From the NCBI GenBank assembly GCA_963724765.1, contig CAVRVY010000003.1, positions 1,088,001 to 1,152,000 of the forward strand: 64,000 bases of DNA. Reading direction: 5' to 3'. The first letter of the stretch is position 1; each line of letters starts with the position of its first letter. The notes beneath the pieces were generated by a model, which had not been told where the DNA came from, ran no database searches, and saw only the letters and a list, made by a program, of their open reading frames with translations. A program made the translations under genes and the position numbers. This DNA comes from an uncultured delta proteobacterium. GTDB taxonomy: Bacteria; Desulfobacterota; Binatia; Binatales; Binataceae. Below are positions 6,013-39,155 of the stretch, piece after piece.

Positions 6013-6101
6013 GTTTCTGTAAGACCCAACGCATTTTTGCTCGCGTCCTCAACACCGTGTACCTTTCGTCCTGGGCAAACCAATCCAGTAGGGGGACGCA
6101 G

Positions 6102-25883: not shown

Positions 25884-27068
25884 ATGTCGGATATTCCTCC
25901 GCTTGCCGGAATCACGGTCGTCGATCTAACCCGCTACCTGGCCGGGCCGTTTTGCACGCAGATTCTCGGTGACTATGGAGCCGAGGTCATCAAAGTCGAG
26001 CCGGTCAAGGGCGCGCGCGCCGAGATGGGCGGTTATACCGGCAAGGACAGCTATTTCTTCATGAGTACCAACCGCTCCAAGAAAAGCGTGCAAATCGACC
26101 TCAGGCAGGCGGCCGGGCGAGACGTGATGCTGCGTCTGGCCGACCAAGCCGACGTGATGATCGACAATTTTCGTCCCGGCGTGATGGAGGCGATGGGCCT
26201 TGGCTACGAAACGCTCGCCGCGCGCAACCCACGTATCGTCGGATGCTCGATCTCCGGCTTCGGCGCGAGCGGCCCGCTGCGCGATACGCCCGGATTCGAC
26301 CAAATCGCGCAGGGCTTCTCCGGGTTGATGAGCGTGACGGGGACCGAGGAGAGCGGCCCGATGCGGGTCGGGATTGCGATCTGCGATCTGCTGGGCGGGA
26401 TTTTCGCCGCGCAGGGAATCCTGCTCGCGCTCCAGGCGCGCCATCGCAGCGGCCGCGGCCAGCGCGTCGAGACCTCGCTGCTGGAGGCGATCGTCAGCGT
26501 GCTCAGCTGGTCGGCGGGAATCTACTTCGACACCGGACGCCCGCCCGGACCCGCCGGCAACCATCATCCGCTCGCGGCGCCGCACGGTGTTCACGCGGCT
26601 TCCGACCGGCCCTTCAATATCGCCTGCGGCAACGAGACGATGTGGCACGCGCTGGCCGAAGCGATCGGACGGCCCGAACTCAAGGACGACTCGCGCTTTT
26701 CCTCGCTGGGCCATCGGATAAAGCATCGCGCGGCGCTGACCGAGGAGATCAATCTCGCGCTCGCCTCCAATACTGCGGAATACTGGATCGACCTGCTCAA
26801 CCGCGCGGGCATCCCCTCCGGTCCGATCATGACTATCGAGGAGATGTTCAATCATCCGCAGATAGCGGCGCGCGAGATGCTGCTGCGCCTGCCCCATCCG
26901 GTGCGTGGCGAGATCATGACGACCGGGCTTGGGGTGAAACTCTCCGAAACGCCGGGTCATATCACGCGGCCGCCGCTGGTCGGTGAGCATACCGACGAGG
27001 TCCTGACGGCACGCGGCTTCACCCTCGAAGAATTGACCCGTCTGCGTGAGGCTCGGGCAATTGGCTAG
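25884..27068 (+). CDS. CaiB/BaiF family (class III) CoA transferase
   Basis: DLTRYLAGP, GAEVIKVE, NRSKKS, DNFRPG, catalytic Asp in ICDLLGG, PPLVGEHT. Confidence 0.92.
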   Translation: MSDIPPLAGITVVDLTRYLAGPFCTQILGDYGAEVIKVEPVKGARAEMGGYTGKDSYFFMSTNRSKKSVQIDLRQAAGRDVMLRLADQADVMIDNFRPGVMEAMGLGYETLAARNPRIVGCSISGFGASGPLRDTPGFDQIAQGFSGLMSVTGTEESGPMRVGIAICDLLGGIFAAQGILLALQARHRSGRGQRVETSLLEAIVSVLSWSAGIYFDTGRPPGPAGNHHPLAAPHGVHAASDRPFNIACGNETMWHALAEAIGRPELKDDSRFSSLGHRIKHRAALTEEINLALASNTAEYWIDLLNRAGIPSGPIMTIEEMFNHPQIAAREMLLRLPHPVRGEIMTTGLGVKLSETPGHITRPPLVGEHTDEVLTARGFTLEELTRLREARAIG

Positions 27069-27075
27069 GGCGCCG

Positions 27076-28641
27076 GTGCCGGAATCATCGCCGGCGCGTG
27101 CGGGGTCGCTGTTCGGCGAGGCACTATGGGCCCCGCTGAGAGGCCGCAGCGCGCTGTGGCTCTGCTGCCTGTTCGGCGCAGAGACGTTGGCGTATGCGCT
27201 GATCCGGCTGCCGACCGATCTAGGCTTCGACGCCAATGCGTTCGGCGATCGGGGCGACTTCCTTTCGATCTCGTACCTGGTCGCACACGGCAGCCGCCCG
27301 GCGATCGATTTCGGCTACCATTGGGGCCTCGTGCCGATCATGCTGGCGCAGGCGTGGTTTGCGCTTTTCGGCGCAACTCCGCAGGCGAACGAGGCGATCA
27401 TGGTCGTCTGTGCGCTGCTGGTTGCTGTCGGTATCGCGCGGATGGCCGCCGCGATGCGCCTGGGCACGCTCGGTATAGTCCTGCTCGTAGTCGCGCTGCC
27501 GTTTGCGTTTCCGACTTTCACACTCACCTACGCTTTGGAAGCCGCGCTACTATCCAATGCGCTGGCGGAGCAGGCTGCACAAAGGCGTTCGACCGCGCTC
27601 GCGCTGACCACGGCGTCGTGCTTCGTGAACCCCAGCATGGCGTACTTCTATGGCTTCGTGCTGTTGCTCGGGCTGCTGTGGGAGAGCCGGCGGCCCGATA
27701 GTGCCGGCGGCTCGTCGACTGACTGGCCAAACATACTGCGCACGGTCACACCGGCCGCGATTACCGGCGCCGTGCTGACACTCATCCTGTCCGCAGCCTA
27801 TGGGCCGCTCGCGCTGGTAAAGACCATCCTGCCGCTGGCCGGGATGGCGGCGCATCGTAACCAGGCGTCGGGTTTCTTTCACGGCGTCGGGCGCGATTTC
27901 TGGTATCAGCCCCGGATGGGGCTGCCCTATTATCTCTTCACCGTAGTCGGCTTCTGGATTGCCGCGACTTTATGGCTGATCGTTGCGGGACTGCGCGCGG
28001 GACGGAGATTGCTATCGGCGCCTGGCACGCGCGACATCTTCGGCGCTGCCGATAGGTTCGTCCTGACCTGCGCCGTACTCCATGTCACGTTCGTCACCGT
28101 TTTTTTCGGATCGGCAGTGAGCTGGCGTTACTACTGCTACATCCTGGTGATGGGTGTCGCGGCGACCAGTATCCGGGACTTACTCTCGGCGCGAATCGCA
28201 GGGCTGCTTACGGCCATGGCTTTACTGGGCAATGTTTCCCATTTCGCACAAATCGCAGTTCGGTGGCGCACGACGGCGCCGAGTCCGGTGACGGCGGGGA
28301 TGTGGGCGTCATCCGAAGAAGTGCATGAATGGGAGCAGGTGCAGCGCGCGACGGGCGGCCATCGCGCGCTGCTGCTGACCGCGATGGGATGCGGTCCCGT
28401 GTTGTCGACCCGTTTCGAGCAGCCGTTCGCCAATCATTTCACTCCTGGAGAGCTGATGCCGGATCAGCTTGCGCGGCTGATGCGGCAGATAGATGGCGCG
28501 CAGCGGATCGTCGTGGTGATTAGCTCCGGCTTCGGCAACATGCTGGTATGGTGGCCCGATATCCAGGGCGCGCTCGACGGCCACGAGCTGCTGTGGAAGG
28601 GCAAGTCGTTCGCGGTATACGGGGCGCGCAGCCCGCGCTAA
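27076..28641 (+). CDS. Polytopic membrane protein, possibly GT-C glycosyltransferase-like
   Basis: ~11 hydrophobic segments, N-terminal loop GDRG...G.RP..DFGYHWG, soluble C-terminal domain; start uncertain. Confidence 0.6.
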   Translation: MPESSPARAGSLFGEALWAPLRGRSALWLCCLFGAETLAYALIRLPTDLGFDANAFGDRGDFLSISYLVAHGSRPAIDFGYHWGLVPIMLAQAWFALFGATPQANEAIMVVCALLVAVGIARMAAAMRLGTLGIVLLVVALPFAFPTFTLTYALEAALLSNALAEQAAQRRSTALALTTASCFVNPSMAYFYGFVLLLGLLWESRRPDSAGGSSTDWPNILRTVTPAAITGAVLTLILSAAYGPLALVKTILPLAGMAAHRNQASGFFHGVGRDFWYQPRMGLPYYLFTVVGFWIAATLWLIVAGLRAGRRLLSAPGTRDIFGAADRFVLTCAVLHVTFVTVFFGSAVSWRYYCYILVMGVAATSIRDLLSARIAGLLTAMALLGNVSHFAQIAVRWRTTAPSPVTAGMWASSEEVHEWEQVQRATGGHRALLLTAMGCGPVLSTRFEQPFANHFTPGELMPDQLARLMRQIDGAQRIVVVISSGFGNMLVWWPDIQGALDGHELLWKGKSFAVYGARSPR

Positions 28642-28904
28642 AAGCCGAGGCGCTCAAAATCAAGGCACCTGCTCAGAACTCGGGACATGATCGCTCGCGG
28701 TAGCATCAAAAAATCCCGACGATCTTAGAACGCGCGCTCGCCTCAGAGCTTGCGCCTCGGGTCTCGCGCGTTTTGCGAATAGCGACTGAAATCAGTTGCT
28801 TAGAAGGTGTTTTCGGCAGTCTTTGAATGCCACTGTCGCATTTCACGAAGAAATCGGCGGCTCCGAAAGCGGGTATCGCCAGCAATTCGCGTATGTATTT
28901 TCAG

Positions 28905-28920
28905 AGGCACAAGAATTGCT
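28905..28920 (+). promoter_or_regulatory. Putative sigma54 (-24/-12) promoter
   Basis: AGGCACAAGAATTGCT: GG at 28906-7, GC at 28918-9, exact GG-N10-GC spacing, near consensus TGGCAC-N5-TTGC. Confidence 0.65.
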
Positions 28921-28930
28921 CCAGCTTAGA

Positions 28931-29040
28931 AGCGGCGCTGAGGTCTCCCCCGAGAACACCGGCGCTTGTCCCCCAAAGGCCGGGCTATCGCCGTAGGTCC
29001 CCCAACGTGCGGTCATTAACGGTAGCCCGGCCTCTTCCTC
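28931..29040 (+). ncRNA. Candidate small RNA with C-rich loops
   Basis: Starts at the predicted sigma54 +1; 13-bp stem 28978-28990/29020-29032, three TCCCCC motifs, G-U pairs favour the + strand. Confidence 0.5.
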
Positions 29041-29109
29041 CTTCTCCATCGACTGGCACTTTTCAACTTGCGGCGCTGTTCAAATTCGCCCGTAGTGGCT
29101 CGCGTTCAT

Positions 29110-29829
29110 TCAGTAAAGCCGCGGCGTCACGAAAATCCCATCGATGAAATGTTTGGTGGCGGTCGCCGCCTTGAAAGGCTTCTTCATCAGCGTGTCCGCG
29201 AGCTCGCGCGCCGCCTTTGCCAGATGCCGCGTCTTGACCACCCGGGTGACCATCCCCATCTCGAACAATTCGCGCGCGGTGTAATGACGGCAGAGGATGG
29301 CGGCTTGCTTGGCGCGCCAGGGGCCCATCCGCATCGCCATCACGATCGCCGGGCCGCCCGTAAATGGCGCACTCAGATCGACCTCCGGCACCCAGAACTC
29401 GGCATCCTCCGCCGCGACCGTGAAATCGAAGGCGAGCGCGAGCGCCCATCCTCCGCCGACCGCGTAGCCGTTGACGGCCGCGATCGTCATGCAGTCCAGG
29501 CGGGTTATCTGATCGAAGGCGCGGCCGATCATCCGCGCCAGTCCGGCGTTGCGCTCGGTGAAGATGCGCCGGCGCTCGTTGGGGTCCTTCACGTCGCTGG
29601 CGCCGGAGACGTCGGCGCCGGCCGAAAACGCGGCGCCGGTGCCGGTAACGATCAGCACGCGGGTTTCGCGGTCGTCGCGGACGTCACGGATCAAGCGCTC
29701 GAATTCGGCCATCACCTCTCGGTTCATGCAGTTGCGCCGCTCGGGCCGGTTGAAGGTTATGGTGGTTAGCGGTCCGTCCTTCGCGAACAGGAAATTCGCG
29801 GGCGTGTTTGCGTTAATCGAATCGCTCAT
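29110..29829 (-). CDS. Enoyl-CoA hydratase/isomerase (crotonase) family protein
   Basis: FNRPERRN, FSAGAD, AAVNGYAVGGG, FWVPE. Confidence 0.9.
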   Translation of the reverse strand: MSDSINANTPANFLFAKDGPLTTITFNRPERRNCMNREVMAEFERLIRDVRDDRETRVLIVTGTGAAFSAGADVSGASDVKDPNERRRIFTERNAGLARMIGRAFDQITRLDCMTIAAVNGYAVGGGWALALAFDFTVAAEDAEFWVPEVDLSAPFTGGPAIVMAMRMGPWRAKQAAILCRHYTARELFEMGMVTRVVKTRHLAKAARELADTLMKKPFKAATATKHFIDGIFVTPRLY

Positions 29830-38971: not shown

Positions 38972-39046
38972 TGGTGATCCCAGCGGGAGTCGAACCCGCG
39001 TTCCCGACGTGAGAGGCCGGTGTCCTAACCACTAGACGATGGGACC
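38972..39046 (-). tRNA. tRNA-Glu (CTC)
   Basis: GGTCCCATCGTCTAGTGGTTAGGACACCGGC-CTCTCAC-GTCGGGAACGCGGGTTCGACTCCCGCTGGGATCACCA; cloverleaf, encoded CCA. Confidence 0.96.
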
Positions 39047-39079
39047 AGCCGGTGAGCGTTTCCCTTTACAAGGAAGAGT

Positions 39080-39155
39080 TGGCTGAGGAGGGAGGACTCG
39101 AACCTCCAATCCCCTGATCCAGAGTCAGGTGCCTTGCCAATTCGGCTACTCCTCA
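39080..39155 (-). tRNA. tRNA-Gln (CTG)
   Basis: TGAGGAGTAGCCGAATTGGCAAGGCACCTGA-CTCTGGA-TCAGGGGATTGGAGGTTCGAGTCCTCCCTCCTCAGCCA. Confidence 0.96.

What the first reader, a model, noticed from the sequence alone, without database searches (positions are those of the whole stretch)
28790..29045. Candidate sigma54-dependent small RNA displaying three UCCCCC motifs (Pxr-like architecture)
Seen: in a ~470-bp gap between convergent genes lies a near-consensus -24/-12 promoter (AGGCACAAGAATTGCT, 28905-28920) with no credible ORF behind it. Its predicted +1 (28931) coincides with the start of a stem-loop topped by TCTC-CCCC-GAGA, followed by a linker TTGTCCCCCAAA, then a 13-bp stem GGCCGGGCTATCG/CGGTAGCCCGGCC enclosing CCGTA-GGTCCCCCAACG-TGCGG, then a pyrimidine tail. 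Two G-U pairs work only on the + strand. Upstream are an IHF-like site (AATCAGTTGCTTA, 28790-28802) and a possible activator half-site (TGTCGCA, ~28834). Known: sigma54-driven sRNAs exist (Qrr, GlmY, CrcZ, myxobacterial Pxr), and C-rich loops in other sRNAs pair with Shine-Dalgarno sequences. Inference: an undescribed ~105-nt trans-acting regulator. GUCCCCC is complementary to GGGGGAC, the RBS of the DUF4239 gene at 6091-6097, although 7 nt alone is weak evidence.
Basis: partly seen in the sequence, partly recalled or inferred. Interest (0 to 1): 0.8.

Follow-up and report, generated by a model that had tools for sequence, protein, structure and literature searches.

The report
Sigma-54 small RNA of Binataceae
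This is a previously undescribed small regulatory RNA gene, kept with its sigma-54 promoter and three exposed C-rich motifs across most of the uncultured soil family Binataceae, and it probably silences messenger RNAs by covering G-rich ribosome-binding sites.

Summary
Window 28931 to about 29033 (+) encodes a structured RNA of about 105 nt. A covariance model finds it in 111 of 151 Binataceae genomes (20 of 30 genera). It finds none in 133 genomes of other families of the class, nor in 150 others of the phylum. Its helices covary: 13 pairs change on both sides and 0 of 500 shuffles reach this. The fold is strand-specific.

A GG-N10-GC sigma-54 promoter sits 13-16 nt before the first stem in 79 of 80 anchored loci. 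rpoN and about 28 activator genes are present. Upstream lie two conserved 13-bp dyads about 70 bp apart, with an IHF-like site between them. They resemble LuxO sites at qrr genes.

No Rfam family matches. The gene stands alone and is usually divergent from a tRNA Pro-Arg-His-Lys operon.

Transcription, the activator and the targets remain untested. Target prediction gave leads only: the cold-shock protein and HU/IHF-family leaders. It is a new member of a known kind.

The parts
28766..28778 (+). Distal upstream dyad (GCGCG-TTT-TGCGA in this genome; TCGCA-N3-TGCAA/TGCGA in most other genera). Putative enhancer-binding-protein site centred about -159 from the predicted +1.
   Evidence: The conserved block TTTTGCGAAT is shared by 12 same-genus loci. 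In other genera a dyad lies at -125 to -130 from the GG of the -24 element (29 hits). The window copy fails the regular expression; I placed it by alignment and by its 70-bp spacing to the proximal dyad.
28790..28802 (+). IHF-like site AATCAGTTGCTTA (WATCAR-N4-TTR), lying between the two dyads.
   Evidence: 26 of 64 loci match the pattern, against 1.96 expected in shuffles (largest 7). 25 of the hits lie at -101 to -120 from the GG. A PF00216 HU/IHF-family gene exists in the genome.
28836..28848 (+). Proximal upstream dyad TCGCATTTCACGA, centred about -89 from the predicted +1. Putative enhancer-binding-protein site.
   Evidence: 57 of 64 loci carry at least one such dyad, against 0.66 in shuffles (largest 3 in 200). 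49 hits lie at -51 to -80 from the GG.
28896..28901 (+). T-tract (ATTTTC) just upstream of the -24 element.
   Evidence: It is visible in most of the 80 promoter regions printed. I did not quantify it.
28905..28920 (+). Sigma-54-type -24/-12 promoter AGGCACAAGAATTGCT (GG at 28906-28907, GC at 28918-28919).
   Evidence: GGYRY-N5-TKGC lies 13-16 nt before the GCGCUG stem in 79 of 80 anchored loci. rpoN is present. GGCACN5TTGCW occurs 25 times in the genome against 8 for the control pattern.
28931..29033 (+). The small RNA itself (predicted +1 at 28931; 3' end undetermined, at or shortly after the hairpin that ends at 29032).
   Evidence: The covariance model scores it 114.7 bits, E 5e-24, as a single copy in the genome. 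The + strand fold has z -4.4. 65 distinct homologues show covariation.
28934..28966 (+). Hairpin 1: stem GGCGCUG/CGGCGCU, with an inner CUC/GAG stem presenting the C-run 28947-28951 (motif 1, UCUCCCCCGAGA, 28944-28955).
   Evidence: Helices 1 and 2 are 100% and 99.5% paired. Four Cs of the run, 28948-28951, have P(unpaired) 1.00 in the partition function; the first C, 28947, is paired (0.01).
28966..28977 (+). Single-stranded linker, motif 2 (UUGUCCCCCAAA here; UGUCCCCAAGC in nearly all other members).
   Evidence: It is close to invariant in the 65 distinct sequences of A3. P(unpaired) is 0.97-1.00 over the C-run.
28978..29032 (+). Hairpin 2, terminator-like: a 13-bp outer stem and a 5-6-bp inner stem presenting motif 3 (GGUCCCCCAACG, 28996-29007).
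   Evidence: Helix 3 (12 pairs) has 5 pairs changed on both sides and helix 4 (7 pairs) has 6. U-G pairs make it specific to the + strand.
29033..29047 (+). Pyrimidine tail UCUUCCUCCUUCUCC. In other genera the same position is a U-run (for example GUUUUUUAU).
   Evidence: Alignments. In the genus of the window the tail is rich in C and U rather than U-rich, so termination efficiency and the 3' end are uncertain.

Best explanation
A free-standing gene for a small RNA of about 105 nt, specific to Candidatus Binataceae.

RNA polymerase carrying sigma-54 transcribes it from the -24/-12 promoter at 28905-28920, starting near 28931. An NtrC-family enhancer-binding protein, not yet identified, is proposed to activate this. 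It would bind the two 13-bp dyads centred about -89 and -159, helped by DNA bending at the IHF-like site between them.

The RNA folds into two hairpins. It displays three near-invariant C-rich motifs: UCUCCCCCGAGA in a loop, UGUCCCC(C)AAG in the linker and GGUCCCCCAAC in a loop. These motifs are proposed to pair with G-run ribosome-binding regions (GGGGGA type) of a small set of mRNAs. Pairing would block translation initiation, without Hfq.

Shown here:
- gene conservation
- structure
- strand
- promoter and upstream elements
- presence of rpoN, activator genes and an HU/IHF-family gene
- exposure of the motifs in the predicted fold

Inferred: transcription, the identity of the activator, pairing with mRNAs and the direction of regulation.

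My odds are about 0.9 for a genuine sigma-54-driven RNA gene and about 0.55 for the anti-ribosome-binding-site mechanism.
For: Conservation:
- BLAST finds the locus in 20 of 36 other same-family genomes (21 of 37 with the window's own) and in 0 of 24 from other families.
- The model R1 finds it in 111 of 151 family genomes (78 of 95 high-quality; 20 of 30 genera).
- It finds it in 0 of 133 genomes of other families of the class and 0 of 150 others of the phylum.
- 61 of 65 loci from the pattern scan give full-length matches of 72-128 bits.

Structure:
- 97.1% of cells are paired and 13 pairs change on both sides, against 5.4 in shuffles. 0 of 500 shuffles reach this.
- Slid controls give only 28-45% paired.
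- The reverse strand scores at most 29 bits.

Promoter:
- 79 of 80 anchored loci carry it at a fixed distance.
- rpoN is present, as are about 28 PF00158 activator genes.
- The genome-wide promoter motif occurs 25 times against 8 for the control.

Enhancer elements: dyads in 57 of 64 loci against 0.66 expected, and IHF-like sites in 26 of 64 against 1.96, both at fixed positions.

Independence from neighbours:
- Downstream genes differ between genera.
- In the window the next gene is convergent.
- The RNA contains no AUG, and 1-nt indels occur in its loops.

Motif exposure: P(unpaired) is about 1.0 for four or five Cs of each of the three C-runs.

Ribosome-binding logic:
- The 16S 3' end reads GGAUCACCUCCUUUC. 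A GGGGGA site therefore pairs with the ribosome through one G-U, but pairs perfectly with UCCCCC.
- GGGGGA occurs at -20 to -6 in 19 of 3568 putative starts, against 7-9 expected.

Target leads:
- A 12-nt perfect complement to motif 1 abuts the ATG of a cold-shock protein gene. GGGGGA lies within 12 nt of the start in 20 of 27 orthologues.
- A G5A motif is conserved in the leader of an HU/IHF-family gene.

Precedent: the 6C sRNA pairs through C-rich loops without chaperones (abstract of PMC6486639).

No Hfq was found.
Against: No expression data exist. No RNA run was listed, which is no evidence either way.

Target prediction gave no statistical signal:
- Duplex energies at starts averaged -18.4, against -17.4 kcal/mol inside genes.
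- Complementary 9-mers number 370, against 300 for reversed controls.

The cold-shock leader motif also occurs in genomes where the RNA was not found. Its genus-level association with the RNA is 17/2/2/5, one-sided p 0.0057. That test is confounded by relatedness. It weakens to 17/4/2/3 (about p 0.10, my hand calculation) once the divergent homologues of two more genera are counted.

The dyad and IHF patterns were written after I had looked at the data.

No activator gene is linked to the RNA in 81 of 82 loci.

In the genus of the window the terminator lacks a U-run.

The alignment used for the pair counts was fitted to the model.
Confidence: 0.75

Rival explanations
1. The RNA is real and sigma-54-driven but works as a protein decoy. 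Its three exposed C-rich motifs would bind and titrate an RNA-binding protein, in the manner of CsrB with CsrA, rather than pairing with mRNAs.
For: The three repeated, near-invariant motifs are presented in loops and a linker. Conservation extends beyond the C-runs to flanking bases, as a protein site would require. Genome-wide complementarity shows no enrichment.
Against: To my knowledge (recalled) no bacterial protein is known that recognises UCCCCC. Only three motifs are present, whereas known sponges carry many. C-rich loops in 6C act by base pairing (abstract of PMC6486639). Conserved complements exist in two leaders.
Confidence: 0.12
2. It is a cis-acting 5' leader or attenuator of a downstream gene, not a separate gene.
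For: In some loci the crude ORF call puts the next gene on the same strand within 60-280 nt.
Against: In the window the next gene is convergent. The downstream gene families differ between genera: E2 acyltransferase, glycogen phosphorylase, hybrid kinase, PolX, amidohydrolase, GlnE and an acyltransferase. The second hairpin is followed by a U-run in most genera.
Confidence: 0.04
3. It is a conserved DNA element that makes no functional RNA, for example a bidirectional terminator plus protein-binding sites between convergent genes.
For: It lies between convergent genes in the window, and the large hairpin could terminate both.
Against: G-U pairs work only on the + strand: U-G occurs in 38 of 65 sequences at one pair and G-U or U-G at several others. 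The - strand has z -1.3 and model scores of at most 29 bits. In other genera the flanking genes are not convergent and differ. The promoter sits at a fixed distance.
Confidence: 0.03
4. It encodes a small protein.
For: ORF 28827-29147 (+, 106 aa) overlaps it and gives weak tblastn matches within the genus.
Against: Those matches merely follow the nucleotide conservation. The alignment has 1-nt and 2-nt indels in loops and paired covariation. There is no AUG within 28931-29033.
Confidence: 0.01

Closest known systems
Qrr sRNAs of Vibrio (sigma-54 and LuxO dependent)
   Same: A small trans-acting RNA behind a sigma-54 promoter. It has palindromic 13-bp activator sites of the form TTGCA-W3-TGCAA, located -89 to -120 from the start site (passages of PMC11443567). 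The dyads here, TCGCA-N3-TGCAA/TGCGA, have the same length, spacer and half-site core, at about -76 to -89 and -147 to -159.
   Different: No Rfam Qrr match at E up to 10. It is a single copy in all but one of the 111 genomes with a match, and is not next to an activator gene in 81 of 82 loci. No Hfq was found, whereas Qrr action needs Hfq (recalled). The pairing motifs are C-runs, and the lineage is different.
Pxr of Myxococcus
   Same: [quoted passage not shown]
   Different: pxr always lies just downstream of the sigma-54 response regulator gene nla19 (same passages). This RNA lies divergent from a tRNA operon. There is no Rfam Pxr match. It has two hairpins plus a linker rather than three stem-loops. 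I know of no C-rich motif in Pxr (recalled).
6C sRNA of Actinobacteria
   Same: A GC-rich genome and exposed C-rich loops. In 6C these loops bind mRNAs directly and without chaperones (abstract of PMC6486639). This is the best mechanistic analogue.
   Different: No Rfam 6C match. The promoter type, lineage, motif flanks and architecture all differ.
RoxS/RsaE, IsrR and LhrC of Firmicutes
   Same: Several C-rich motifs that target G-rich ribosome-binding sites (titles and abstract starts in the listing; details recalled).
   Different: No homology. Those RNAs use other sigma factors and regulators.
Scr3202 (RF02833, Streptomyces)
   Same: The only Rfam family with any score: 25.4 bits, E 0.17. 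It has the same layout of a hairpin with a C-rich loop, a C-rich linker and a long GC hairpin.
   Different: The score is far below its gathering score of 52. It is not found at E up to 10 in 12 other family members. I read it as convergent architecture or chance.
GlmY/GlmZ of Enterobacteriaceae
   Same: sRNA genes with sigma-54 promoters that depend on an activator (GlrR) and on IHF. This is recalled; I saw only the listing and abstract start of PMC3045617.
   Different: No homology. Their mechanisms differ (decoy for RapZ and activation of glmS).

Membership tests
Any Rfam 15 family | Covariance-model score at or above the family's gathering score | tested here: not met
   In gathering mode over the window only two tRNAs match. 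In E-value mode on 28600-29150 only Scr3202 appears, at 25.4 bits against 52. In 12 other members nothing appears at the RNA except one 18.2-bit SorX match with E 6.
Pxr | Sequence and structure homology to the Pxr model | tested here: not met
   No match at E up to 10.
Pxr | Location directly downstream of the sigma-54 response regulator gene nla19 | tested here: not met
   An activator gene lies within the held locus in 1 of 82 loci. None lies in the window.
Pxr | Sigma-54 promoter | tested here: met
   The promoter is predicted from sequence only.
Qrr | Homology to the Qrr model, including its conserved seed | tested here: not met
   No match at E up to 10.
Qrr | LuxO-type palindromic sites upstream of a sigma-54 promoter | tested here: inconclusive
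   Similar 13-bp dyads are conserved at fixed positions. The binding protein is unknown.
Qrr | Dependence on Hfq | tested here: not met
   PF17209 was not found in the genome, which is 97% complete. This is absence of a match, not proof of absence.
6C RNA | Homology to the 6C model | tested here: not met
   No match at E up to 10.
6C RNA | Exposed C-rich loops used for pairing | tested here: inconclusive
   The loops are exposed in the predicted fold and conserved. Pairing was not tested.
Sigma-54-dependent promoter | GG and GC dinucleotides 10 nt apart within a TGGCAC-N5-TTGC-like sequence | tested here: met
   AGGCACAAGAATTGCT at 28905-28920. The motif is kept in 79 of 80 anchored loci.
Sigma-54-dependent promoter | rpoN and AAA+ activator genes in the genome | tested here: met
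   PF04552 scores 203.8 bits. There are 31 PF00158 matches, about 28 of them strong.
Sigma-54-dependent promoter | Transcription start 12 nt after the GC, dependent on an activator | not testable with these tools
   No RNA run was listed.
Intrinsic terminator | A GC-rich hairpin followed by a U-run | tested here: inconclusive
   The hairpin is present and covaries. A U-run follows it in most other genera but not in the window's genus. The terminator scan did not call it.

The most novel reading that the evidence does not exclude
The RNA is an anti-Shine-Dalgarno mimic. It differs from the 16S 3' end at one base (UCCCCC against UCCUCC). This would let it outcompete ribosomes selectively at GGGGGA-type ribosome-binding sites.

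On this reading it sits at the output of a LuxO-like signalling pathway (sigma-54, two dyads, IHF). It silences a small regulon that includes the main cold-shock RNA chaperone and an HU/IHF-family protein. The second target would close a feedback loop on its own IHF-assisted promoter.

That would be a Qrr-style circuit invented independently in an uncultured phylum that has no Hfq.
Probability: 0.15. Interest if true: 0.75.

Novelty: new member of a known kind. Interest (0 to 1): 0.55.

Why it matters
I found no paper describing a regulatory RNA in Binatia/Binatota, a widespread lineage known to me only from metagenome-assembled genomes. The full-text search 'Binatota' plus 'small RNA' returned 0 papers. 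In the broader searches, none of the 15 papers listed contains the terms Binatia, Binataceae or Binatus, and no title among the 10 listed concerns an sRNA. Supplementary motif lists of comparative-genomics papers could not be read and might hold it.

The finding gives a complete regulatory module that can be tested: enhancer sites, an IHF site, a sigma-54 promoter, the RNA and its seed motifs. This can be moved into a surrogate host. It adds a case of C-rich-loop regulation, probably independent of Hfq, outside the Gram-positive bacteria. It also supplies a covariance model for annotating Binataceae genomes.

Tried and rejected
Expression. The look-up of sequencing runs (kind rna, window 28800-29120) listed no RNA holder.

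Target prediction by duplex energy. Three seeds against 4485 candidate start windows showed no useful separation from intragenic controls (mean -18.4 against -17.4 kcal/mol). The top hits were dominated by GC-rich stem bases.

Exact complementary 9-mers genome-wide. There were 370 against 300 for reversed controls. 49 of 285 sites lie before a coding-like ORF, and most of those are internal starts. One such site, before kdpA, is an internal start: the Pfam match begins at profile position 119.

PspF-like activator leader. The TTGGGGGACC site is kept only within the genus. The protein is present in 29 of 30 genera whether or not the RNA was found. I rejected it both as evidence of feedback and as the cognate activator.

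Other promoters sharing the dyads. 13 of 1595 loose promoter-like sites have a dyad upstream. The best other one showed no credible downstream gene. Rejected.

A linked regulator.
- Downstream neighbours of ten loci are unrelated enzymes plus one hybrid kinase.
- An activator gene adjoins the RNA in 1 of 82 loci. Its best match in the own genome is only 51% identical.
- This remains a lead only.

Weak model hit. The 19.1-bit hit in G034 looks like an ordinary terminator, without promoter or C-motifs. Rejected as a homologue.

Scr3202 homology. Rejected.

Full-length duplexfold energies are inflated, because the method ignores intramolecular structure. I do not use them.

Tools not used: structure prediction, complex prediction and the protein database searches. 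No protein question was decisive.
Full report
OBSERVATION

The gap between the convergent ORFs 27046-28641 (+) and 29110-29829 (-) is 468 bp. The downstream ORF is an enoyl-CoA hydratase. The upstream 531-aa ORF has no Pfam or NCBIfam match.

The + strand of 28929-29050 folds at -53.8 kcal/mol (z -4.4; 0 of 200 shuffles as good). The - strand gives z -1.3.

The three-fold TCCCCC cluster is unexpected: 1 match against 0.01 expected. The promoter motif on its own is not unexpected in 64 kb: 1 against 0.70. The case therefore rests on comparison with relatives.

ORGANISM AND DISTRIBUTION

Named records that carry the same RNA are almost all labelled Candidatus Binataceae, Binatus, Binatia or 'delta proteobacterium' MAGs.

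BLAST with window 28780-29060 found the locus in 20 of 36 other same-family genomes (21 of 37 counting the window's own) and in 0 of 24 genomes of other families of the class.

I aligned 21 loci, obtained an RNAalifold consensus and built covariance model R1. R1 gave these results:
- A single copy in the own genome (114.7 bits; BLAST agrees).
- 111 of 151 family genomes, 78 of 95 high-quality ones and 20 of 30 genera.
- 0 of 133 genomes in 18 other families of the class.
- 0 of 150 other genomes of the phylum.
- In all but one of those genomes a single copy; G067 has two copies about 440 nt apart.

Some 'misses' are assembly gaps or divergence:
- Four same-genus genomes without the RNA also lack the tRNA Pro-Arg-His-Lys cluster at E 1e-20 or better. 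I take these tRNAs to be essential.
- In a fifth, the contig ends inside the neighbouring hydratase gene.
- G020 (another genus) carries a divergent copy of 27.8 bits at the syntenic place. It has the promoter, both dyads and the IHF-like site.
- G021 carries a 34.2-bit copy with three UCCCCC motifs and a GG-N10-GC promoter.

The tallies include genomes flagged unpublished (G081, G083, G165, G122, G109).

IT IS A STRUCTURED RNA ON THE + STRAND

A degenerate pattern scan of 185,579 species' genomes returned 65 loci. Of these, 61 give a full-length R1 match of 72-128 bits. The four that do not are labelled Actinomycetota (two), Solirubrobacteraceae and Paracoccus, and I take them as chance hits.

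On the 82 matches (65 distinct sequences, A3):
- 97.1% of cells pair, against 94.0% in shuffles.
- 13 of 28 pairs show changes on both sides, against 5.4.
- 0 of 500 shuffles reach any of the five measures.
- Sliding the partners by 1-3 columns drops pairing to 28-45%.

Two caveats apply. The alignment was fitted to the model, and kin are not independent.

U-G and G-U pairs are frequent; for example U-G occurs in 38 of 65 sequences at one pair. These would be A-C or C-A mismatches on the other strand. The reverse strand never scores above 29 bits.

Indels of 1-2 nt in loops and the absence of an AUG exclude a coding reading.

ANATOMY

- Hairpin 1 (28934-28966) presents UCUCCCCCGAGA.
- A single-stranded linker carries UGUCCCCAAGC. 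This is invariant in nearly all members. The window has the variant UUGUCCCCCAAA.
- Hairpin 2 (28978-29032) has an outer stem and an inner stem that presents GGUCCCCCAAC.
- P(unpaired) is 0.97-1.00 over all five Cs of the linker and hairpin-2 C-runs and over four of the five in hairpin 1, whose first C (28947) is paired (0.01).
- In most genera a U-run follows hairpin 2. In the window's genus the tail is rich in C and U, so the 3' end is uncertain.

PROMOTER AND ENHANCER

GGYRY-N5-TKGC lies 13-16 nt before the GCGCUG stem in 79 of 80 loci that could be anchored. The remaining one has GGAAC. The two loci without an anchor also show GGCAC-N5-TTGC in the printed sequence. The set of 82 loci contains duplicates of the same genomes.

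The genome has rpoN and 31 PF00158 matches, about 28 of them strong. None lies in the window. GGCACN5TTGCW occurs 25 times in the genome, against 8 for the backwards control.

Upstream I found two 13-bp dyads, TCGCA-N3-YRMRA:
- One lies at -57/-58 from the GG (-70 in the window's genus).
- The other lies at -125 to -130.
- At least one is present in 57 of 64 loci, against 0.66 in shuffles (largest 3 of 200).

A WATCAR-N4-TTR site lies between them in 26 of 64 loci, against 1.96 expected.

In the window these elements are 28836-28848, 28766-28778 (a degenerate left half, placed by alignment) and 28790-28802. The dyads are 70 bp apart here and 68-71 bp apart elsewhere.

I wrote the patterns after seeing the data. 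The positional clustering is therefore the real evidence.

The dyad has the same form as the LuxO consensus TTGCAW3TGCAA, found -89 to -120 from qrr start sites (passages of PMC11443567). A PF00216 HU/IHF-family gene exists.

GENOMIC CONTEXT

In 59 of 73 loci a tRNA operon Pro(tgg)-Arg(tct)-His(gtg)-Lys(ctt) lies within 1000 nt upstream on the opposite strand.

The window is an exception. There the 531-aa ORF of unknown family lies upstream, and only the downstream genes (hydratase, CN-hydrolase, PLP enzyme) are syntenic within the genus.

Downstream genes differ between genera. The RNA is therefore an independent gene, not a leader.

MECHANISM

The best-supported reading is a trans-acting RNA whose C-runs pair with G-run ribosome-binding sites.
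- The 16S 3' end is GGAUCACCUCCUUUC. A GGGGGA site therefore pairs with the ribosome through one wobble but pairs perfectly with UCCCCC.
- GGGGGA occurs at -20 to -6 in 19 of 3568 crude starts, against 7-9 expected. That suggests a small regulon.
- No Hfq was found. The 6C sRNA is a precedent for chaperone-independent pairing by C-rich loops in a GC-rich organism (abstract of PMC6486639).

TARGETS: LEADS ONLY

Global scans gave no enrichment.

The longest complement at a start site is TCTCGGGGGAGA (12 nt, to motif 1), abutting the ATG of a 66-aa cold-shock protein gene.
- In 20 of 27 orthologues GGGGGA lies within 12 nt of the start (one of the 27 is an unpublished genome).
- In one other genus with the RNA (G025) the leader reads GTTCTCGGGGGA, a 12-nt complement to UCCCCCGAGAAC.
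- The motif is also present in genomes where the RNA was not found.
- The genus-level association (17/2/2/5, p 0.0057) ignores relatedness. It falls to about p 0.10 (17/4/2/3, hand calculation) when the two divergent homologues are counted.

An HU/IHF-family leader carries TTTGGGGGAC, conserved across the genus, with G5A variants in four other genera.

A metallo-beta-lactamase-fold gene has ACGTTGGGGGA at its ribosome-binding site.

I did not test its conservation.

COMPARISON WITH KNOWN FAMILIES

No Rfam family matches.
- Promoter logic: it works like Qrr or GlmY/Z (an sRNA driven by sigma-54, an activator and IHF).
- Effector logic: it works like 6C or RoxS (C-rich loops).
- Size and promoter type: it resembles Pxr.
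- It is a member of none of these families; see the membership table.

NOVELTY AND VERDICT

This is a new RNA family of a known kind. Conservation, covariation and promoter architecture support it strongly. Transcription, the activator and the targets remain open.

Literature searches found nothing on RNAs of this lineage. Supplementary lists could not be read.

Noticed in passing
L-loci; not in the window: In 59 of 73 loci the RNA gene is divergent from a tRNA operon Pro(tgg)-Arg(tct)-His(gtg)-Lys(ctt), 290-1000 nt away. This is the only conserved neighbour.
   Followed up: yes
window 27046-28641 (+): A 531-aa ORF with no Pfam or NCBIfam match occupies the place where most relatives have the tRNA operon. 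tblastn found it in none of the other loci. It may be an insertion or rearrangement next to a former tRNA site.
   Followed up: partly
window 28657-28685: A further block, GGCGCTCAAAATCAAGGCACCTGCTCAGAA, lies about 250 nt upstream of the RNA. It is conserved within the genus. Its function is unknown.
   Followed up: no
G067:C24:130129-130247 and 130568-130686: One genome has two tandem copies of the RNA about 440 nt apart, at 60 and 63.8 bits.
   Followed up: no
L214 965-1066 (-), G020: A divergent homologue lacks the C-run in the linker. It carries CUCCCCAAGC after the terminal hairpin instead, as if the motif had moved.
   Followed up: partly
L069 386-1456 (+): In one genome a 356-aa activator lies between the tRNA-Pro gene and the RNA. 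It has an AAA+ domain and a Fis-type HTH but no sensory domain. About 300 nt of AT-rich DNA precedes it. Its best match in the own genome is 51% identical. It could be a cognate activator or an island inserted at the tRNA.
   Followed up: partly
G000:C3:1453276-1453476 (-) and orthologues (L119-L145): The cold-shock protein leader of Binataceae has a conserved AGGAGG-U-N(1-4)-CGGGGGA-N(0-2)-AUG arrangement. This puts the canonical Shine-Dalgarno unusually far (11-13 nt) from the start.
   Followed up: partly
G000 whole genome: All 25 exact GGCACN5TTGCW matches have T at the last position. No Hfq domain was found in a 97% complete genome.
   Followed up: no
window 38975-39155 (-): Two tRNA genes (66.4 and 61.7 bits) are the only Rfam matches in the window at gathering score.
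   Followed up: no
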